Assembly (NCBI GenBank): GCA_964016885.1
Contig: OZ024766.1
Coordinates: 1,178,001 to 1,242,000 of the forward strand
Direction of reading: 5' to 3'
DNA: 64,000 nt
From: Eledone cirrhosa
Taxonomy: Eukaryota
In this document: piece by piece, positions 4,855-62,445 of the stretch
Position numbering within the stretch: position 1 is the stretch's first letter
How the letters are laid out: every line of letters starts with the position of its first letter
The notes under the pieces: generated by a model
Databases searched by the model: none
Told to the model about the DNA's origin: nothing
What the model saw: only the letters and a program-made list of their open reading frames with translations
Translations under genes and position numbers: made by a program

Positions 4855-4968
4855 CTATATATATATATCTATATAGATATATACATATAGATATATACAT
4901 ATAGATATATACATATATATATATATATAATATATAAGATCAAAAGATGGTTAAAGGAGTTCCATGTA

Positions 4969-5035
4969 TTTTATTATGCGCATTTCAAAAACAAACATCA
5001 TCATGCAATAATATTTGTGTTTTCATCAGATAAAA
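4969..5035 (-). ncRNA. Minimal type I hammerhead ribozyme (family A, left arm of palindrome)
   Basis: Reverse complement reads UUUUAU CUGAUGA [stem II] GAAA UGCGCA UA AUAAAA; core intact, stem I UUUUAU/AUAAAA. Confidence 0.85.
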
Positions 5036-5146
5036 CAGGAGAACATGATATGAAGGCTAAAAAACACTTGTTGATAGTGCAGTTTTAAATCAACATCAAC
5101 TGCACTATCCACAAGTGTTTTTTAGCCTTCATATCATGTCCTCCTG

Positions 5147-5213
5147 TTTTATCTGATGAAAACACAAATATTATTGCATGATGATATTTGTTTTTGAAAT
5201 GCGCATAATAAAA
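5147..5213 (+). ncRNA. Minimal type I hammerhead ribozyme (family A, right arm)
   Basis: UUUUAU (5147-52), CUGAUGA (5153-59), long AU-rich stem II, GAAA (5196-99), palindromic stem III AUGCGCAU, AUA triplet with cleavage predicted after 5207, AUAAAA. Confidence 0.88.
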
Positions 5214-5644
5214 TACATGGAACTCCTTTAACCATCTTTTGATCTTATATATTATGTATACTCCAGTCCTACAAACTGTAGAGTGCTTCTTATCTGATAT
5301 CTGCATTGCTTTATTGTACTACAATAAAACTCACCTCCTACATATATATATATATATATATACACATATATATATATATATATATATGAATACATAAATA
5401 TATATATATTATACATATATATATATATATGAATAAATAAATATATATATATTATATATATATATGTATACATATATATTATATATATATATATATATGC
5501 ATATATATGTACATATATTTATACATACATGTACATATATTTTTACATACATTTATATATATATATACATAAATATATATACACATACATATATAAATAT
5601 ATACCCATATATAAATATATACCCATATATATATGAATATATAC

Positions 5645-46762: not shown

Positions 46763-48031
46763 AACGCCATAGAAAAGGGGACAACTCAGTTTCACATCAT
46801 ATCTTGAAAATATATTTTCTTAAAATTTATGTATATATTTAAAAGGAAGAGGTTATGTAGCTGGTCCTGGTAAAATAGATTCCCAGGCTATGTAGCCGGT
46901 CATGATAAAATAGACTCAAAGGCTACAGAGCTGGTAAGAGTGTCAGATGCCATGAGTTGCGGCCCTTTACGGTCTGAGTTGAGACAATTCGAAATCTTTT
47001 CCACCATAAATTGTTAAAAAACTAAAATCATTTAGTTATCCACTGGTAACGTATGTTAGACTTTAGTTACATACACACATCTACAGGTAAATATATAGAT
47101 ACAGACAACAGGTGTAAACCTACATATATATATACACCTACAGGTAAATATATAGACATATACAGACCACAGAGGTGTAAACCTACATATACATACACCT
47201 ACAGGTAAATATATAGACATATACAGACCACAGAGGTGTAAACCTACATATATATACACCTACAGGTAAATATATAGACATATACAGACAACAGAGGTGT
47301 AAACCTACATATATATACACCTACAGGTAAATATATAGACATATACAGACAACAGAGGTGTAAACCTACATATATATACACCTACAGGTAAATATATAGA
47401 CATATACAGACAACAGAGGTGTAAACCTACATATATATACACCTACAGGTAAATATATAGACATATACAGACAACAGAGGTGTAAACCTACATATATATA
47501 CACCTACAGGTAAATATATAGACATATACAGACCACAGAGGTGTAAACACATATATACATAAACACATATACTCATACATATCCATAGAAACATTGTACA
47601 AAATAATTATTACATACACACACATATATGCAATGAATGAGGAAGGAAGGGGCTGGTGAAACGCTATAGCGATACGTGTGTTGTCTTTCTTTAGGGTTTA
47701 CCGGCTACACAGCCTACTATTATTATTGTTAACTGAATAAGATAAGATTTTTAGATTAAAAAACAACTGAGAAATCTTTTTATCAACCAAGAACGAAAAT
47801 TTATCATTGACAGTCTATATACAATAAAAAACGAAACAGCTTTCACAATATATAAACAACCTTCTGGTTATTGAACCAACCAACAGGAAATTTATAATAA
47901 ATTGAATTGAAAACCAACAGGTGCGTGTGTTTTTATTGGCAGCATGACCCTCCCAAAGTATAACTGTGTGTATATATATATATATTAAAATACAAATATT
48001 AATAAAATAGATGTTCTTTTGATCTATTAAA

Positions 48032-48082
48032 TTTTATTATACATATTTCAGAGGTACAACAGTACGTCCTCATCAGACAAAA
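48032..48082 (-). ncRNA. Minimal type I hammerhead ribozyme (family C, left arm)
   Basis: Reverse complement reads UUUUGU CUGAUGA GGACGUAC UGUU GUACCUCU GAAA UAUGUA UA AUAAAA. Confidence 0.85.
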
Positions 48083-48179
48083 TATAATGATACATGACAT
48101 ACCCTGAGATGTTAAATGGAGACTACCTTGATTAAATCTTAACCATTTAACATCTCAGGGTATGTCATGTATCATTATA

Positions 48180-48230
48180 TTTTGTCTGACGAGGACGTAC
48201 TGTTGTACCTCTGAAATATGTATAATAAAA
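48180..48230 (+). ncRNA. Minimal type I hammerhead ribozyme (family C, right arm)
   Basis: UUUUGU CUGACGA GGACGUAC UGUU GUACCUCU GAAA UAUGUA UA AUAAAA; cleavage predicted after 48224; differs from the left arm only at the variable N7 position. Confidence 0.85.
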
Positions 48231-48874
48231 TTTAATTGATCAAAAGAACATCTATTTTTTTAATATTAATAACTCTAGAAAATTATTAACTGTAGAGTGC
48301 TTCCAATCTACTGTAAAACTCATTATTTGATGTACTCATTGAATCTTGTTTAACTCTTTAATATATATATATAGGAAAATGTTCAATACCCCGACGGCAG
48401 AACTCAAGCCGTTTCGACGGCTATTTCTGGACTTCGTAGTCCAGAAACAGACGTAGATACGGCTTAAGCTCTGCCGTCGGGGTCCTGAACCTTTTCCTAT
48501 TACCCACTCTACTACCCTAATTATTGAGTACTCTGGTGCGTTAAGGTCCCCCTGGTTCCTTACCACACTTCCTTCGTTATATATAATATATATATACACA
48601 AATTTGCGTATATATTTATATATATATACAAACGTGTATATATATATATATATATAAATACACAAACGTGCATATATATATATATATACACTTAAACGGG
48701 GTTATATATTTATTTATATACTAAAACGTATATATATGTATATATATACACACACACAAACGGGGTTATATATTTATTTATATACTACAACGTATATATA
48801 TGTGTATATATATACACACACACGAACGTGTGTTTGACTTAATGTTCACTTCTAGTAGTCCTTTGTGCAAAACC

Positions 48875-51299: not shown

Positions 51300-54200
51300 T
51301 ACAGTTTAAGTTTGTCTCATACAGTTTCTTTATTATTTCAGTGTATCTCATGACATTGGCGGAAGATGATAGGTTTCACTTGAAAGACATCAGTATTTAT
51401 CAACTTTTAAACTCTAAAGGAAGATACAAGGCAGATATAACCCTGGTTATATAAATCTATCGTAGGAATTACTGGGAAATATTTCATCTAAACTGAGATT
51501 GATACAGCAGTTTTTCTACTTCATTTAATGGAATGTCTACAAGATTGTTTGCTATGTTATTTAACTCTTAACTGGTGGACACAAACATCTAGAGTATCAT
51601 CTCAATGACTGGTTACACAACTCAAGAGAACTTCAGTAAAATAATTCTAGAAAGGCTCACTAGTTTATAATTTCTGGTATTAAATACTAGTAAATTGAGA
51701 TTTGTAGTGAGACAGAAATTGTGGAGGTATCAATCTTTTGTGATTGATTTGTACCTTGAGAAAGGAACACATAAGGAGAACCTGATCCAACTGTGATATC
51801 TGTGGTAAATCATTCTCTGAAAGTACTGGATTAACTATGCACAAACATAGTCATACACGAGAGAAACCATATCAATGTGATGTCTGTGATAAATCATTCT
51901 ATACAAAGAGTAACCTAAACAGTCACAAATTTCTTCATACAGGAGTGAAGCCATTCCATTGCGATATCTGTGGAAAATCATTCTCAAGAAAAGGAGCACT
52001 TCCTTGTCACAAACGTATTCACACAGGAGAGAAGCCATATCATTGTGATATCTGTGGTAAATTATTCTCTAGCAAGAGTGGCCTACCCGAACACAAAAGA
52101 CGTTTTCATACCGGCGAGAAGCTATTTCATTGTGATATCTGTGGTAAATCATTTTTTATAAATCCTGAATTAACTAGACACAGACGTATTCACACAGGAG
52201 AGAAGCCATATCGCTGTATTATCTGTGGTAAATCATTCGCTACAAATACTGGATTAACTTCACACAAAAGATTTCATACAGGAGGAGAGAAGCGATATCA
52301 CTGTGACATCTGTGGTAAATCTTTCTCTGGAAATAGTAACCTAACAGCTCACAAACGTACTCATACCGGGGAGAGGCCATATCAGTGTGACATCTGTGGT
52401 AAATCATTCCCTACAAATTCTGAATTAATTAGGCATAAACGTACTCATACCGGAGAGAAGCCGTACCACTGTGATATCTGTGGTAAGTCGTTCACTGCAG
52501 ATAACGGATTATCTTTGCACATGCGTATTCATACAGGCGAGAAGCCATATCATTGTGATATCTGTGGTAAATCATTCACTGTAGGTAGTGGATTAAGAAC
52601 ACACAAACGTACACACACAGGAGAAAAACCATATCACTGTGATATTTGTGGCAAGTCATTCTCTCAAAATGGTGTATTGAAAGTACACAAATGTATACAC
52701 AGAGGAGAGAAGCCATACAGCTGTGATATCTGTGGTAAGTTATTCGCATCAAGTACTGGATTAACTAGACATAAACATATCCACACAGGAGAGAAGCCAT
52801 ACCACTGTAATATTTGTGGTAAGTCATTCCGTAGAAATGATGGATTAATTACACACAAGCGGGCTCACACAGGAGAGAAGTCATGTCACTGTGATATCTG
52901 TGGTATGTCATTCTCCACGATTGCTTGCTTGACTAAACACAAACGTATTCATACAGGAGAGAGGCCATACCACTGTGCTATCTGTGGCAAATCATTCTCT
53001 CAAAATTGTGTGTTAATAACACACAAACGTATCCACACAGGAGAGAGGCCATATCACTGTGTTATCTGTGGTAAATCATTCTCTACACTTGGTGGTGTAA
53101 AGGAACACAGACAGATACATACAGGAGAAAAGCCATACCACTGTGATATTTGTGGTAAATCATTTCTTAGAAATAGAAGATTAACTGAACACAAACGTAT
53201 TCATACAGGAGAGAAGCCATATCACTGTGATATCTGTGGTAAATCATTCACACAAAATTCTGTGTTAACTGAACACAAGCGTACTCATACAGGAGAGAAG
53301 CCGTATCATTGTGATATCTGTGGTAAATCATTCATTAGAAGTAGTCGGGTAAAAGTTCACAAATTTATTCATACTGGAGAGAAGCCATACCCCTGTAATA
53401 TCTGTGGTAAATCATTCTCTACAAATGCTGCATTATCTCAACATAAACTTGTTCACTCAGGGTTAAAGCCATCCCGTTGTGACATCTGTGGTAAATCATT
53501 CAATTGTAGTGGTCAATTGACTACTCACACACGTGTTCATACAGGAGATAAGCCATATCGCTGTGAAACCTGTGGTAAATCATTCACTACAGTTGGTAAC
53601 CTAACATCTCACAAACGTATTCACACTGGAGAGAAGCCATACCACTGTGATATCTGTGGTAAATCATTCTCTGTAAATAGTAACTTCGCTGCTCATAAAC
53701 GCACTCATACAGGAGAGAAACCACATCACTGTGATATCTGTGGTAAATCCTTCTCTCAAAAAGAGCAGTTAAATAGACACAAACGTATTCACACAGGAGA
53801 GAAGCCACATCACTGTGATATCTGTGGTAAATCTTTCACTAGAACTACTGGATTGACTTTGCACAAACGTATTCATACAGGAGAGAAGCCATTTGACTGT
53901 GATGTCTGTGGTAAATCATTCTCTCAGTTGAGTAGCATGACAATTCACAAACGTGTTCACACTGGAAAGTAGCCATACCACTGACATCTGTGGTAAATCA
54001 TTCTCTCAGGTAACTTAACTGTACACAAACGTATTCACACCCGAGACAAGCCATATCACTGGAATAACTCCAGTGATTCTTTCCTAAAACATTCTAACCA
54101 CATGTCCATAGTATCGGAGCTGTGATCTCTCAATTCAGTGATTCTTTCCTGAGACATTCTAACCTAATGCCCATAGTACAGGGTTGCTATTTAAATTAAA

Positions 54201-55581
54201 ATCTTGCAACACAAGTCATGTTAAGTTACAATCTTTTTAATGAAATAATAATTTTAGCAGACGCAGCTCTGGGAATGTTAAATAAAACCACCCAGTTTAA
54301 AGGGTTCCTATTTAGATTGATATCTTTAGATATAGTTTTATATCAGAAGTAAATGTTAACTTACTATCTTAGTAATGTAATAATTAATAATTTTTTGGAA
54401 TTGCAATACAGGGTTCCTATTTAATATAAGAACCTTCATTAAGTTACTTTCTTAGTAATGAAATAAATTTTACTAAACTCCTCCAGATTTGTCATTAATT
54501 AATTGAAATAGAGTGTATTTAATTAGAAATAAGGTGAGAAAAGGCTCAAACCTAGCTCCTCCAGAATATCAGCTCTTTATCTGTATATTTATATCAACAG
54601 AACTGTGAACCCCAGTATTGTAGGTTCTAATCTCACTACTGTTTGTAAATATTAAAAATAAACTGAAATTTCAACAAAACTATTTTTTCAAATATTCTTT
54701 TATTTTGTATGTGTGGCTTAGTGGTTAGGTTGTTGGTCTTTCAATGATGAGAGTTTCATTCCTTGACTGGGTTGTTAATTTATTTTTCAGCAGGGCACGT
54801 CCTTACATGTTATTTCTCATGATAGGGCTAGGGTCCCTATTGTTAAAACACTTAAGAATCCTCATTGGGATACAACCTTGTAAGATGTCAGTTAGACCTT
54901 CCTAAGTGAGAGCTGTAACATATATATGATAGGACGGGGTCATGTATCTTAAAAACACTTGTAAAATCTATGAGGACAGCTAAATCTATAAAGGTGTGCG
55001 GTAACAATATGATTGAAATGAGATTCCCTAACCTTAAAACAGCCAAGAAATCTCATTTGAGATGCAGCTACACCTACATTGGTGTGTTGTAAGAACAGGA
55101 TAGGATTAGGGGCCCTCTCATTAAGTTGAGAAACCTCATAGAAGGTCAGTTGATGGGACTTGCACCAGCTAACCGATACAGGTGTGTGTTGTAATTAAAA
55201 TATGAGAGGACTGGACTCCCTATCATTAAAACACCTGAGAAACCTCATATGAGAGACAATCTTTACAGAGGCCAGCTACATATACTTAACTGTTGTAACA
55301 ACATGAGAGAACTGGGGTCTCCTATCATTAAAACACCAGAGACCTCATGGAAGGCCAGCTAACCCTACATAGGTGTATACTGTAACATGATATACAACCT
55401 GTAAGGATAAATAAGTAGGTAAACAACCCCATTAATGTGTTTATAAAGGATCAAGAAACCTTTAAAAGGGGTCATTGATTTTAATTTGGTGATGGGAATC
55501 CAGCTGTAGAAACTTGCCAAATAAAGAGTCGATAGAACCCTTAATCTGTATCAAAGACATGACAACTTCCCTAGTGTTGGT
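51300..55581 (+). repeat. Direct segmental duplication of the ZF exon and 3' flank; partner 59772-64000 runs off the window
   Basis: Near-identical 5' UTR and 3' flanks; 33705-37670 is an inverted partner of about 50930-54710. Confidence 0.92.
51837..53972 (+). CDS. C2H2 zinc-finger protein ZF5, 25 fingers, 711 aa
   Basis: Tandem C2H2 fingers; paralogue of ZF3 (inverted) and ZF6 (direct). Confidence 0.95.
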
Positions 55582-56402
55582 GACGTGATATAATACACCC
55601 AGTACACTCTGTAATGTGGTTGGTAATAGGAAGGACATCTGGCCGTAGACACTATGCCAAGATAGAACACATAAATGGAAGGTGTTTATCCTTCACAATA
55701 CACATTTTGACATCTTGAAAAATGCTAGAAATAGTAGCAAAACATTCTCAATATGTCTTAGATAATGCTAATTATAGTGTTGTAAAAATTACACTTTACT
55801 ATATATTCAATATATGACGTTCTCGTTGTAATCTACATACTCTAATGTGCATCTCTGACAATTTTCAATACAAAATATAAATTATTGAGAAAGTTATGAG
55901 GAAATAAATGTAGAAGCCTAACTATTTTTGAATCGAAATCAATTTTACTGCCAAATATTAGTCACGTAAGATTTACTTCCCTTTGAACATTACGTAATTT
56001 TTTTTTTTACCCTGCGCTAGGAATCGCACCTGGTCAGCCTACATGCTAGAAATAACAGCCCAATGTTCCTCTTTGTTTCGTCTTAACTTTCTTAATAATT
56101 CATTTTTTGTTCGTTTGTTTTTTTGCAACTAAATATATTTTATTAATAAAAATCAAAACAATGGTAAACAAATCTCAAATAACAACAACACTCTTTTGTG
56201 AGGCTAAACTCCACCAAACAGGGAGTATGTTCAGTTATTATTACAACAATATGACCCTCCCAAGTATAACAATATTTGTTTCGACACACGATTTCATATC
56301 AAAAACCTCGCAAAACAAATATATATTTTATATATATATATTCCAAGGCTCTGATACCATCAACACTATAAACACAGAGCTGGCATATCTAAGAACTGAC
56401 TA

Positions 56403-56458
56403 ACTGCCTGATGAGGTCATAGCCATTCAATGGCTATCATCGAAATATATATAGCAGT
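56403..56458 (+). ncRNA. Minimal type I hammerhead ribozyme (family D), intact
   Basis: ACUGC CUGAUGA GGUCAUAGCCAU UCA AUGGCUAUCAUC GAAA UAUAUA UA GCAGU; 5-bp stem I, long stem II, palindromic stem III AUAUAUAU; cleavage predicted after 56453. Confidence 0.9.
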
Positions 56459-56679
56459 AAATAAAGGATTATAAGTTCATGCAATTGACTTATGTTTCGT
56501 CACTATATATATATATATATATATACACACACATAGGGAAAAAGAGAGGATTTACGAATTTCAATGGCTTAAGAAAGAAAGCTAGCTCTATTTGTTTATT
56601 GTGACAAGATACGAATCTGTGGCTAAAGAATAAAATAGATCAACGTTAATGGCGGAGAAAGGTGAAAAAATTTTTGAAA

Positions 56680-58220
56680 TTTTTAATTTAACAACATGGA
56701 GATTATTTCTTTGGTTGTTTAGTAAAATATAAGAAGACAACAAATTAATTACATGTGAAGAGGGTAAGTTTAGATTTACTTCAAGTCTATAATAATTGTT
56801 TCAACTTTAGGCACAACGCCAGTAATTTGTCTATAATAATGTGTAATAATTGTTTCTACTTTAGGCACAAGGCCAGCAATTATCCAGTACATTACTGGTA
56901 CTGTATTTTATCGACCCCGTAAGGATGAAAAGCAAAGTTAACCTGGGCGGGATTTGAACTCAGATCGTCCCTTTACGATCTGAGTTCAAATCCCGCCCAG
57001 GTTGACTTTGCCTTTCATCCTTACGGGGTCGATAAAATACAGTACCAGTAATGCACTGGTAATTTGCTGGCCTTGTGCCTAAAGTAGAAACAATTATTAC
57101 ATAATGGTTTCTAGTTATGATACAAGGCCAATAATTTTTTTTTTTGGGGGGGGGGGAGTTGATTAATTCGAACCAGTGTATTACTGGTACTTCATTTTAT
57201 CGACCCCCGTAATGATGAAAGGCAAAGTTAACTTCGATGGGATTTGAACTCAGACCGTAAAGGGTTGTAACTCTATGCTGCGACTTTCTACCGATACTGC
57301 CAATCCACCACCTTATTGTTTGTAAATAATAGAATTATGTGAACCTTTCAACGAAGGGCCTTGTTTCAGGAGCTACCAGGAGACAAGTCCCCTCCACTTT
57401 TTCAGGAACGGGGCACAAACCCTCTTTTGTCTCCCCTAACTTTTCCCAATTTATTCAAACGTCTATGTTTTATATTTTGTTTATTTGATATAATAAATTC
57501 TTTTTAAACTTTTTTTTTTTTAATATCTGAACTTTATTTGAATATATAAAATTTAATTAGTGTAAACTGTTACTTATGTGATAGGGTCCGGGGAAAATCT
57601 CCGTAAGTAATACTAACATGCCCCTTTAAGGACCAACAAATGTTGGTTTGTCTCCCTCACATTTTGAAGGCAAACGAGACCCCTGCTTTCAATGATACAG
57701 TAATTATAGGATTTTGAGCTTTTAAAAATGATGAAAAGAATCGCCTTTATTGATAAATAAATTATATACAAGTAAAAATACTGGGCGACCACAAAAATAC
57801 TCCTTGATTTCAAATACTTATAATATGAAAACTTAAATGAATATTCTTACAATATTGGTGGCTACAGTTGTATAAGCTACCAAAGGTTCTTGTGGTATTG
57901 GTTGACGTCATAGAACAGGCATGGGCAACTCTTTTTCGAGAAGCGGGCCACATGAGATGTAGCTCATCATCAGGTGGGCCACATGAGATATGGCTCATCA
58001 TCAGGAGGGCCACATGAGATGTGGCCCATCATCAGGTGGGCCACATGAGATATGGCTCATCATCAGGAGGGCCACATGAGATGTGGCTCATCATCAGGTG
58101 GGCCACATGAGATGTAGCTCATCATCAGGTGGGCCACATGAGATGTAGCTCATCATCAGGAGGGCCACATGAGATGTGGCTCATCATCAGGTGGGCCACA
58201 TGAGATGTGGCTCATCATCA
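56680..58220 (+). repeat. Inverted duplicate of 26627-27752 (ZF1 5' exon and intron start)
   Basis: Identical short ORF translations at 26948-27148 and 57613-57813; shared donor at 56764. Confidence 0.92.
56844..57099. mobile_element. Head-to-head SINE palindrome (arms about 120 bp)
   Basis: ...gggatttgaactcagatcgt|cccttt|acgatctgagttcaaatccc... Confidence 0.88.
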
Positions 58221-58904
58221 CACATACACCCACTGACACACATACACTCTCACATATACAAAGACAGACATACATTCACGCAGACACACACACAACCTGG
58301 TAAATAATAGAAGCTCTGGTAGCTCTGCTAACTTTTTACACTTCTTCTTTTATCAAACTTAAGCTACTAGCTTAATAGTTGTGTAGCCCCACAGAAAAAA
58401 GAACCCAGTCCACACTGTAAAGTGGTTATGTAGGTGTCCCAACAAAAAAAACCCAGTTCACACCGTAAAGTGGTCATGTAGGAGTCACAACAAAAAACAC
58501 CCAGTCCACACTGTAAAGTGGTCATGTAGGCGCCACGGTAAAAAAGCACCCAGTACTCTCTGTAAATGTGGTTGGTGTTAGGAAGGGCATCCAGCTGTAG
58601 AAATCAAGCCAAAATCAGTTCCCATATGAGCAAGACATGTTTAGCTGACTGGACACTGCCCACAACAAGACAAGCTGTCTAACCCATGCCAGCATGGAAG
58701 AATGGACGTGAAACAGTGATGATGATAATGATATAAACAGGCACATATTCATAGGTATATGTGTGTGGGGCGTCCGCCTTAACCAGTTTTGCTCGATGAC
58801 GGAAAGAGCCAAAATAATCTAAAGAATTAAAACAACTCAATAATCAGAAGTATTTATCAAGGAAAAAATAGACAAAAATATACCTATTTTTCCTTCAAAG
58901 TCCC

Positions 58905-59088
58905 GACTGCAGTTTTGCTGAATCCGTTTGCAGCAATTTATGCACTATAGAAATGCACCATCGGTTACAAACACGTCAAGAAACAGTCCTTTTTGAGGGG
59001 TATCTTCATAAGCCTTATCAACCTAACAGCGATGCTGCACTTCTATGGTGCATAAATTGCTGCAAACGGATTTGGCAAAACTGCAGTC
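58905..59088. mobile_element. Foldback/MITE-like element with arms of about 55 bp
   Basis: gactgcagttttgctgaatccgtttgcagcaatttatgcactatagaa ... ttctatggtgcataaattgctgcaaacggatttggcaaaactgcagtc. Confidence 0.7.
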
Positions 59089-59340
59089 ACACTTTACCGA
59101 GTGTACTGGTGTATTTTGTCATGACACCAGCACTAGCACATTTCAGAGTGTACTGTGTGTATTTTATGATGACACCAACACTCACTTTACAAAGTGTACT
59201 GGGTGTATTTTGTCATGACACCAGCACTTCCACTTTACAGAGTGTACTGGGTGTATTTTATTGTGACACCACTACTACCACTTTACAGAGTGTATTTTAT
59301 TATGTATAATTACAGAGTGTATTTTATTATGTATATTTAA

Positions 59341-59744
59341 CCCTTTAGCATTCACATTAATTTGTCAAATGTCATGTTTATCTGTTCACATTAATTGAAG
59401 ATAAATCACTAATATTGTCTTTTGTTTCTTGTTTATTTTGAATGTCGTTGAGTGTAAAACCTTCAGAGTCGGTCCCACTACTTTCACAAGCCATGTTGAT
59501 ACACACATAAAATCTGTTCTACTTTCAACGTTAAAAAAACACGTTGTTTCAAGTAGTTTCACTGTATTAAGTGTTAATTTTCGTGGTAAAGGCCTAATCT
59601 CGCAGTAATCTCGAATTGACGAGATTTTGATGACAGTATTGTTTATTTTGAAAATGATATTTTAGTGTGGGTCTTGTTGGCTGGTTTTGGCCAGTTTGAA
59701 CAAATAAAGGGGAAATAGTTCTGGCCGGTTTGAACACTAAAGGG
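59341..59744 (+). mobile_element. Divergent piggyBac-type MITE relative
   Basis: TTAA|ccctttagcattcac ... ggtttgaacactaaaggg; right TSD degenerate. Confidence 0.65.
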
Positions 59745-60315
59745 TTTTTAAACTTTCCACTGTTGAATCTCTCCAGTTTAAGTTTCCTGTTTGTCTCATA
59801 GAGTTTCTTTATTATTTCAGAGTATCTCATGACATTGGCAGAAGATGATAGGTTTCACTTGAAAGACATCATCAGTATTTATCAACATTTAAACTCTAAA
59901 GGAAGATACAGGACAGATATAACCCTGGTTATATAAATCTATCGTAGGAATTACTGGGAAATATTTCATCTAAACTGAGATAACAGCAGTTTTTCTACTT
60001 CATTTAATGGAATGTCTATAAGATAGTTTGCTATGTTATTTAACTCTTAACTGGTGGACACAAACATCTAGAGTATCATCTCAATGACTGGTTACACAAC
60101 TCAAGGGAACTTCAGTAAAATAATTCTAGAAAGGCTCACTAGTTTATAATTTCTGGTATTAAATACTAGTAAATTGAGATTTGTAGTGAGACAGAAATTG
60201 TGGAGGTATCAATCATTTGAGATTGATTTGTACCTTGAGAAAGGAACAAATAAGGAGAACCTGATACAACTGTGATATCTGTGGTAAATCATTCTCTGAA
60301 AGTACTGGATTAGCT

Positions 60316-62445
60316 ATGCACAAACATAGTCGTACACGAGAGAAGCCATATCACTGCGATATCTGTGATAAATCATTCTATACAAAGAGTAACCTAAACA
60401 CTCACAAACCTATTCATGCAGGAGTGAAGCCATACCATTGTGATATCTGTGGAAATTCATTCTCAAGAAAAGAAGCCCTTATTTCTCACAAACGTATTCA
60501 CACAGGAGAGAAGCCATATCATTGTGATATCTGTGGTAAATCATTCTCTAGAAAGAGTGGCCTACCCAATCACAAACGTATTCATACCGGCGAGAAGCCA
60601 CATCATTGTGATATCTGTGGTAAATTATTCACTACAAATTCTGAATTAACTAGACATAAACGTATTCATACCGGAGAAAAGCCGTATCGCTGTGATATTT
60701 GTGGTAAATCATTCGCTACAAATACTGGATTAACTTCACACAAAAGATTTCATACAGGAGAGAAGCCATATCACTGTATCATCTGTGGTAAATCTTTCTC
60801 TGGAAGTAGTGAACTAACATCTCACAAACGTACTCATACCGGAGAGAAGCCATATCAGTGTGACATCTGTGGTAAATCATTCTCTAGAAATTCTGCATTA
60901 ACTAGACATAAACGTACTCATACCGGAGAGAAGCCGTACCACTGTGATATCTGTGGTAAGTCGTTCACTGTAAATACCGGATTATCTTCGCACATGCGTA
61001 TTCATACAGGCGAGAAGCCATATCATTGTGATATCTGTGGTAAATCTTTCACTGTAGGTAGTGGATTAAGAGCACACAAACGTATACACACAGGAGAGAA
61101 ACCATATCACTGTGATATCTGTGGTAAGTCATTCTCTCAAAATGATGTATTGAAAGTTCACAAACGTATCCACACAGGAGAGAAGCCACACAGCTGTGAT
61201 ATCTGTGGTAAGTTATTCGCAACAAGTACTGGATTAACTAGACATAAACGTATTCATACAGGAGAGAAGCCATACCACTGTGATATCTGTGGCAAATCAT
61301 TCTCTGAAAATTCTGTGTTAATAACACACAAACGTATCCACACAAGAGAGAGGCCATATCACTGTGTTATCTGTGGTAAATCATTCTCTAGAATTGGTGG
61401 TGTAAAGGAACACAAACGTATTCATACTGGAGAGAAGCCATACCACTGTGCTATCTGTGGCAAATCATTCTCTCAAAATTCTGTGTTAATAACACACAAA
61501 CGCATCCACACAGGAGAGAGGCCATATCACTGTGTTATCTGTGGTAAATCATTCTCTACAATTGGTGGTTTAAAGGAACACAAACAGATACATACAGGAG
61601 AAAAGCCATACCACTGTGATATTTGTGGTAAATCATTTCTTACAAACAGAGTATTAACTGCACACAAACGTATTCATACAGGAGAAAAGCCATATCACTG
61701 TGATATCTGTGGTAAATCATTCAGACAAAATTCTGTGTTAACTGAACATAAGCGTACTCATACTGGAGAGAAGCCGTATCATTGCGATATCTGTGGTAAA
61801 TCATTCATTAGAAGTAGTCGGGTAAAAGCTCACAAATTTATTCATACTGGAGAGAAGCCATACCCCTGTAATATCTGTGGTAAATCATTCTCTACAAATG
61901 CTGCATTATCTCAACATAAACTTGTTCACTCAGGGTTAAAGCGATACCGTTGTGACATCTGTGGTAAATCATTCAATCGTAGTAATCATCTGACTACTCA
62001 TACACGTGTTCATACAGGAGATAAGCCATATCACTGTGATATCTGTGGTAAATCATTCACTACAGATAGTAGCCTAACATCTCACAAACGTATTCACACT
62101 GGAGAGCAGCCATACCACTGTGATATCTGTGGTAAATCATTCTCTGTAAATAGTAACTTCGCTGCTCATAAACGCACTCATACAGGAGAGAAACCACATC
62201 AGTGTGATATCTGTGGTACATCCTTCTCTCAAAAAGAGCAGTTAAATAGACACAAGCGTATTCACACAGGAGAGAAGCCACATCACTGTGATATCTGTGG
62301 TAAATCTTTCACTAGAACTACTGGATTGACTTTGCACAAACGTATTCATACAGGAGAGAAGCCATTTGACTGTGATGTCTGTGGTAAATCATTCTCTCAG
62401 TTGAGTAGCGTAACAATTCACAAACGTGTTCACACTGGAAAGTAG
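60316..62445 (+). CDS. C2H2 zinc-finger protein ZF6, 25 fingers, 709 aa
   Basis: Tandem C2H2 fingers; acceptor ends 59820; paralogue of ZF5 and ZF3. Confidence 0.95.

What the first reader, a model, noticed from the sequence alone, without database searches (positions are those of the whole stretch)
56343..56505. Intact solo hammerhead about 230 bp upstream of the putative ZF6 first exon, same strand
Seen: the cleanest ribozyme in the window (ACUGC/GCAGU stem I, long stem II, AUAUAUAU stem III) in a 160-bp island bounded by (TA)n on both sides. It lies between the 3' flank of ZF5 and the 5' exon of ZF6. Inference: if active it could cut ZF5 read-through transcripts and separate the tandem genes. 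It may equally be a neutral recent insertion.
Basis: partly seen in the sequence, partly recalled or inferred. Interest (0 to 1): 0.7.

Follow-up and report, generated by a model that had tools for sequence, protein, structure and literature searches.

The report
Penelope retrotransposon tip carrying a hammerhead
The hammerhead-shaped RNA motif is real, but it is the 162-base end piece of a jumping gene with thousands of near-identical copies in this genome, sitting in a TA repeat between two zinc-finger genes, and on its own it likely cuts poorly and likely does nothing for those genes.

Summary
The type I hammerhead is there as described (56403-56458, predicted cut after 56453). It is not locus-specific. 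[quoted passage not shown] The genome holds 1,516 exact copies of the 54-nt ribozyme. The island sits in the (TA)n tail of a second repeat, is duplicated 8.4 kb downstream, and is absent from 38 of 38 other paralogous zinc-finger first-exon modules. Stem III is a palindrome suited to a dimer; the active monomer fold has probability about 0.0003. 2,766 copies cross the cut site; at most 41 TA-joined copies start there. A gene-separator role is unsupported, but no RNA data were available. Unexplained: 685 copies start at one point about 169 nt from the 3' end versus 690 that pass it, possibly the element's transcription start. This scan already noted Hydra-clade hammerheads elsewhere in this genome.

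The parts
56343..56504 (+). 5'-truncated copy: last 162 nt (pLTR tip) of a Hydra-type Penelope-like element
   Evidence: 98-100% identical to at least 40 dispersed places; 95.7% to the 3' end of full-length copy L155, 98.1% to L156; family 3' end at TCACT then (TA)n in 29 of 30 position-sampled copies
56403..56458 (+). Type I hammerhead motif: stem I 5 bp, core, long stem II, palindromic stem III; predicted cut between 56453 and 56454
   Evidence: cleavage not tested
56445..56452 (+). AUAUAUAU palindrome: 2 bp plus tetraloop as monomer, 8-bp helix III as dimer
   Evidence: active monomer -10.9 versus MFE -14.7 kcal/mol; active dimer -34.4 versus two monomers -29.4
56347..56381 (+). Predicted 7-bp hairpin at the 5' edge of the island, just inside the family's truncation hotspot
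   Evidence: whole-island z-score only -0.55
56460..56465 (+). AATAAA inside the element, 6 nt after the cut site; function untested
56319..56342 (.). Upstream (TA)n tract (target site; also the tail of the repeat on its left)
56505..56525 (.). Downstream (TA)n tract (target site)
56200..56320 (+). 3' fragment of a second, unrelated high-copy repeat ending in (TA)n; the island is nested in its tail
   Evidence: (44 matches listed, 1531 candidates)
56575..56763 (+). Conserved putative promoter / non-coding first-exon module of the zinc-finger genes, GT donor at 56764
   Evidence: (40 matches, 78-100%); no RNA evidence
51786..53972 (+). ZF5: C2H2 zinc-finger frame, 25 fingers, ends 2.4 kb before the island
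60265..62445 (+). ZF6: C2H2 zinc-finger frame, 25 fingers

Best explanation
The island is the last 162 bases of a Penelope-like retrotransposon with thousands of copies in this genome, likely pasted into a TA repeat as an aborted reverse-transcription product, and its hammerhead likely serves the parent element as half of a dimer and has no job at this locus. [quoted passage not shown] Inferred: the endonuclease nicks (TA)n, the RT primes at a fixed point in the element RNA, copies through the hammerhead and often stops about 169 nt in. In the parent, two hammerheads (one per pLTR) would pair through their palindromic stems III and release a unit-length RNA that may circularise, as Cervera and de la Pena proposed. 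This copy landed in the TA tail of an older repeat in the ZF5-ZF6 spacer and was then duplicated with the spacer. It lies upstream of the putative ZF6 first exon and lacks the leader motif that follows the family's 3' ends, so it is likely inert.
For: Copy number: 1,516 exact 54-mers and 2,766 exact 32-mers, 0 for the reversed controls. Position-sampled copies: 29 of 30 end at the same 3' base; 5' ends are 160-171 nt in 12, 179-462 nt in 8, 764 nt or more in 10. Full-length copies with direct pLTRs of 511, 214 and 243 bp; an unbroken 803-aa frame with RT-like and GIY-YIG motifs. Inverted 5' arms and an 84-90 bp one-sided tail in 25 of 30 junction-bearing loci, the PLE features described in PMC8557442. 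Monomer fold disfavoured, dimer favoured; single minimal PLE hammerheads showed no cleavage in vitro in PMC4209133. Core positions mutate about as often as the rest: 9 of 341 versus 106 of 2,788 aligned bases in 33 arms. 0 of 38 other paralogous promoters carry the island. No head-to-tail arrays of the short unit.
Against: No RNA evidence either way. This copy is within one change of the family majority where 4-6 are expected (P 0.015-0.07), although it was picked for being clean. Same-strand hammerhead-like motifs of other families outnumber opposite-strand ones 8 to 2 upstream of paralogous first exons, with none in the first 1.5 kb downstream. An axolotl hammerhead with a 2-bp helix III and tetraloop still cut 22% in an hour as a monomer (PMC7229834). 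The RT has no Pfam or PDB sequence hit; its assignment rests on motifs compared by eye.
Confidence: 0.88

Rival explanations
1. The insertion arose as above but is now used by the host: it cuts ZF5 read-through RNA (weakly alone, or as a dimer with the identical copy 8.4 kb downstream or another transcript) and shields the ZF6 promoter.
For: Same strand, about 120 bp before the conserved first-exon block. Intact core, at most one change from the family majority. A second identical copy flanks ZF6, so one long transcript could hold two. 8 same-strand versus 2 opposite-strand motifs of other families upstream of paralogous first exons.
Against: 31 of 38 paralogs have no intact same-strand hammerhead in 1.5 kb upstream, and 10 of 38 carry one with a mutated core (CAGAUGA). 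The upstream regions are rich in the (TA)n target and the hits are not independent; 8:2 is not significant. Six AATAAA precede the island. Active monomer probability about 0.0003.
Confidence: 0.05
2. The ~169-nt hotspot is the element's transcription start. Short copies are run-off cDNAs of the 5' end of the uncut precursor, so each carries the internal promoter, and this one would act as an extra upstream start for ZF6.
For: 685 copies start at the hotspot versus 690 passing it; another ATAT word 50 nt downstream gives 7. Junctions spread over a few bases only. Drosophila Penelope has an internal promoter in its pLTR that can drive downstream genes (PMC2377424 passages). The hotspot resembles an initiator (recalled consensus, not tested).
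Against: The three measured 5' pLTRs of full-length copies are 214, 243 and 511 bp, not 169. Only 4 of 30 tail-bearing copies start at 164-169. This copy starts 7 nt inside the hotspot, so it lacks the initiator-like bases. No RNA data.
Confidence: 0.05
3. The 162-169-nt unit is a self-propagating non-autonomous element (solo retrozyme or SINE-like) that uses the parent's enzyme.
For: The short class is about half of copies that reach that point, and it holds the whole hammerhead.
Against: No head-to-tail repeats with a spacer of up to 30 nt. Short and long copies share the same alleles, with none private to the short class in 60 loci. Junction bases differ between short copies. The short unit lacks the 10-mer found 27 and 20 nt beyond the two 3' ends.
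Confidence: 0.04

Closest known systems
Hydra clade of C-terminal EN+ Penelope-like elements, e.g. Hydra-1_Obim, Hydra-2_Amil, Hydra-1_Ajap (Craig et al. 2021, PMC8557442; sections 3, 11, 12, passages and supplement parts read)
   Same: RT then C-terminal GIY-YIG; DKT; CxCx5C linker; no CCHH; CxxC and CxH around the conserved E and N; type I hammerhead near the 3' end; (TA)n target; pLTRs, inverted arms, one-sided tail.
   Different: RWR instead of RWK; unit ~3.9 kb (published ones generally under 3 kb) with a ~1.3-kb 3' UTR; tail 84-90 bp (30-40 bp in that paper's general description); hammerhead sequence unlike that of Hydra-1_Obim, so a different family.
Minimal / dimer-type PLE hammerheads (Cervera and de la Pena 2014, PMC4209133; parts 1-2 of 4 read)
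   Same: Long helix II, 5-bp helix I, small palindromic helix III, G10.1-C11.1; mostly found as single motifs of truncated PLEs.
   Different: Low sequence diversity here (roughly 3-4% per copy), more like the D. virilis case; no unpaired base is needed at the 5' end of stem II.
Animal non-LTR retrozymes (Cervera and de la Pena 2020, PMC7229834, passages; Li et al. 2026, bioRxiv 10.64898/2026.07.22.740005, part 1 of 5)
   Same: Short, AT-rich, non-coding, type I hammerhead, related to a PLE pLTR.
   Different: No tandem units found; the sequence is the co-linear end of a coding element.
Penelope of Drosophila virilis, pLTR internal promoter (Schostak et al. 2008, PMC2377424; passages)
   Same: The pLTR could hold the start site and promoter.
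   Different: Different clade; no promoter or intron shown here.

Membership tests
Type I hammerhead ribozyme | Core CUGANGA, GAAA, NUH with stems I-III in type I order | tested here: met
Type I hammerhead ribozyme | Reaches an Rfam hammerhead model score | tested here: not met
   no hit at gathering score or at E up to 10 in 54000-60000; the 2-bp stem III and long stem II may explain this (inference)
Type I hammerhead ribozyme | Self-cleavage at the predicted site | not testable with these tools
   folding favours a dimer; no RNA run listed
EN+ Penelope-like element | Single ORF with RT and GIY-YIG endonuclease | tested here: met
   803-aa frame in L155 (its N-terminal RWR motif lies in another frame); weak Pfam GIY-YIG hit E 0.0054 on the L009 fragment; no Pfam hit on the whole frame
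EN+ Penelope-like element | pLTR from partial tandem, 5' truncation, inverted arms, one-sided tail | tested here: met
Hydra clade | DKT in place of DKG | tested here: met
   HADKT
Hydra clade | CxCx5C linker, no CCHH, CxxC and CxH around E and N | tested here: met
   against section 11 of PMC8557442
Hydra clade | N-terminal RWK motif | tested here: inconclusive
   RRMRWR in L032, L034, L155 (read by eye); homologs show RWK or RWR
Hydra clade | (TA)n insertion and canonical hammerhead near the 3' end | tested here: met
Hydra clade | Length generally under 3 kb | tested here: not met
   unit 3,863-3,904 bp; a descriptive trait in the paper, not a diagnostic motif
Hydra clade | Groups with published Hydra RTs in a tree | not tested
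   published proteins were seen in the supplement and compared by eye only
Naiad clade | N-terminal endonuclease, DKA, no canonical hammerhead | tested here: not met
   endonuclease is C-terminal, DKT, hammerhead present
Non-LTR retrozyme | Tandem units each with a hammerhead | tested here: not met
   0 head-to-tail junctions with spacer up to 30 nt
Host-domesticated ribozyme | Locus-specific and conserved across paralogs or species | tested here: not met
   absent from 38 of 38 other paralogs; thousands of copies elsewhere; other species could not be examined

The most novel reading that the evidence does not exclude
The sharp 5' boundary shared by about half of the copies marks the start site of the retroelement's uncut precursor RNA. 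Short copies are then run-off cDNAs that spread an internal promoter plus a dimer-gated ribozyme into TA tracts, and in the zinc-finger clusters such same-strand pieces from several families have been kept upstream of first exons because they start or stop transcription between tandem genes.
Probability: 0.06. Interest if true: 0.65.

Novelty: new member of a known kind. Interest (0 to 1): 0.2.

Why it matters
At this locus it matters little: it is an ordinary retroelement fragment. The family is of modest use to PLE specialists, because the role of the hammerhead in EN+ PLEs is still unclear (PMC8557442) and thousands of young copies give countable footprints. Copies almost always run through the cut site (2,766 versus at most 41 TA-joined starts there), which fits an uncut or re-ligated template. 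About half stop at one sharp point 169 nt from the end, which I did not find described in the papers read; I ran no search aimed at it. If that point is the transcription start, it would map the precursor RNA from DNA alone.

Tried and rejected
Rfam: nothing at gathering score in the window, no hammerhead at E up to 10 in 54000-60000. ARAGORN: no tRNA, so no tRNA-derived SINE head. RNA runs: no RNA holder listed; two contig runs of one sample laid on 55600-57300 gave no usable ends or empty-site allele because repeats are skipped. Pfam and PDB on the 803-aa frame: no hit. 343 homologs at E <= 1e-20 were found but almost none is named; 13 of the 120 listed were aligned. Naiad was my first guess and was rejected on domain order. 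LTR-retrozyme reading of the PBS-like word at 56347-56359: rejected, since it lies inside the PLE pLTR and no LTR structure was seen. Microhomology with (TA)n as the sole cause of the 169-nt hotspot: rejected, control ATAT site 7 versus 685. A footprint of hammerhead-made 5' ends: not found; of 41 TA-joined hits, 15 were examined and 6 were true starts, 7 TA expansions, 2 internal deletions; that pattern only sees TA-joined starts. Twin hairpins beyond the 3' ends: single-sequence folding of six 81-nt stretches gave one z of -2.1 and five near 0; only the repeated 10-mer was confirmed. PLE-mediated duplication of ZF6 between its two island copies: rejected, the 98%-identical spacer with intron is duplicated at DNA level. 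One search fetched an unrelated paper (wrong id). Literature searches run; none listed a paper whose title or abstract start concerns a hammerhead separating tandem zinc-finger genes. Supplements of the bioRxiv preprint could not be seen and might list this family.

Full report
Observation. Stem I is 56403-56407 / 56454-56458, the core 56408-56414, stem II 56415-56441 and GAAA 56442-56445, with an AUA triplet and a predicted cut after 56453. A strict descriptor gives 5 hits in the window and 0 in each of 100 shuffles. The other four are two back-to-back pairs at 4967-5215 and 48031-48231 with different sequences. Rfam does not detect any of them.

Fold. Stem III is the palindrome AUAUAUAU. In one molecule it gives 2 bp and a tetraloop; that active fold scores -10.9 kcal/mol against an MFE of -14.7 in which the core is paired away, probability about 0.0003. 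Two molecules form an 8-bp helix III: -34.4 against -29.4 for two monomers, although the cofold MFE (-37.2) still pairs the core away. This is the dimer-type architecture described for metazoan PLE hammerheads, where a single minimal motif showed no cleavage and dimers low cleavage (PMC4209133, parts 1-2 of 4). An axolotl motif with a 2-bp helix III cut 22% in an hour as a monomer (PMC7229834 passages), so weak activity is possible.

It is a dispersed repeat. In the 3.0-Gb own genome the island matched 40 places at 98-100% among the 40 of 174 candidates scored. Exact counts are 1,516 for the 54-nt ribozyme and 2,766 for a 32-mer across the cut site, with 0 for reversed controls. In 30 copies taken in positional order, 29 end at the same 3' base before (TA)n; 5' ends lie 160-171 nt upstream in 12, 179-462 in 8 and 764 or more in 10. 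The window copy is 56343-56504.

The parent. Of the first 30 loci, 10 continue into a shared upstream sequence and 4 reach a GIY-YIG frame on the same strand. Full-length copies have a direct 5' pLTR (511 bp in L032, 214 in L034, 243 in L155) and a unit of about 3.9 kb. L155 holds an unbroken 803-aa frame with RT-like motifs and the endonuclease; its N-terminal RWR motif lies in another frame (read). Pfam and PDB give no hit on it; 343 mostly unnamed homologs share its motifs. DKT, the CxCx5C linker, absence of CCHH, CxxC and CxH, the 3' hammerhead and the (TA)n target match the Hydra clade (PMC8557442 section 11). By eye the protein follows the published Hydra-1_Obim, Hydra-2_Amil and Hydra-1_Ajap sequences (supplement), but its hammerhead differs from Hydra-1_Obim's, so it is another family. 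No tree with published sequences was built. That the host is an octopus-like animal is an inference from the zinc-finger arrays and earlier notes, not tested.

Insertion footprints. 166 places carry the pLTR-leader junction. Of 30 examined, 25 end 84-90 nt beyond it, often as one arm of an inverted pair. So there are two fixed 3' ends, each followed in the parent by the same 10-mer at +27 and +20 (4 of 5 copies examined). Earlier notes of this scan proposed hairpins there as a start signal; single-sequence folding did not support hairpins. The window copy lacks this leader. Ten of the 25 tail-bearing copies also hold more than 169 nt of 3' sequence, which implies a circular or tandem template (inference).

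The cut site is crossed. Against 2,766 crossing copies, 41 have a long TA run joined at the cut site; of 15 examined only 6 were true starts. The template is therefore likely uncut there or re-ligated. This does not measure activity, since a ligated circle gives the same picture, as proposed in PMC4209133.

The hotspot. 685 copies start about 169 nt from the 3' end and 690 pass that point; a similar ATAT word 50 nt downstream gives 7. Short and long copies share alleles in 60 loci, junction bases vary and no head-to-tail arrays were found. I favour repeated independent stops at an RNA end or structure. A transcription start is one candidate, since Drosophila Penelope starts in its pLTR (PMC2377424 passages), but full-length 5' pLTRs are longer than 169 and only 4 of 30 tail-bearing copies start there. 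This remains unexplained.

The locus. ZF5 ends at 53972, 2.4 kb upstream, with six AATAAA before the island. The island sits in the TA tail of another high-copy repeat. The spacer is duplicated 8.4 kb downstream at 98%, with an identical island. The putative first exon is a module shared by at least 40 places. None of the 38 non-duplicate paralogs carries this island (two flags were matches to a different element). Seven of 38 have an intact same-strand hammerhead-like motif of another family within 1.5 kb upstream (6, plus L117), 2 have an opposite-strand one, 10 carry a core-mutated one, and none has one in the 1.5 kb downstream. Across the family, core bases mutate about as often as flanks (2.6% versus 3.8%). 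No RNA run was available.

Verdict. A real hammerhead motif on an ordinary, truncated Hydra-type Penelope-like insertion; likely dimer-dependent and likely inert here (0.88). New family of a known clade; interest 0.2.

Noticed in passing
window 4967-5215 and 48031-48231: Two back-to-back hammerhead pairs of other families, also with palindromic stem III; they look like inverted PLE-type ends.
   Followed up: partly
window 56200-56320; L145-L154: 3' fragment of another very abundant (TA)n-ending repeat; longer copies carry CUGAUGA and GAAA boxes about 200 nt upstream, possibly the rearranged hammerhead type noted elsewhere in this scan.
   Followed up: partly
L122, L127-L132 and L158, L167, L170 (G000:C27 about 3.10-3.17 Mb): Tandem zinc-finger paralogs carry a same-strand hammerhead-like piece with a mutated core (CAGAUGA) about 190 or 1000 bp before the first-exon block.
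   Followed up: partly
38 paralogous first-exon modules, L115-L132 and L157-L176: Hammerhead-like motifs upstream lean same-strand (8 to 2) and none lies in the first 1.5 kb downstream; TA runs are also mostly upstream.
   Followed up: partly
window 56347-56359, minus strand: Resembles the plant initiator-Met primer-binding site (recalled, no call); it is part of the pLTR and probably chance.
   Followed up: no
window 56842-57101: A 260-bp near-perfect inverted repeat made of two arms of a very abundant repeat, in the putative first intron of ZF6.
   Followed up: no
window 54136-56968 versus G000:C27 about 1240550-1243360: Very recent tandem duplication of the ZF spacer (98-100%); an assembly or haplotype artefact was not excluded.
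   Followed up: partly
G000: Related Hydra-type families at 50-70% protein identity have several open frames of 850-890 aa, so some relatives may be intact.
   Followed up: no
window 56640-56660 and paralogs: AATGGCGG is conserved in the first-exon module, like a YY1 site (recalled), which would fit a start-proximal position.
   Followed up: no
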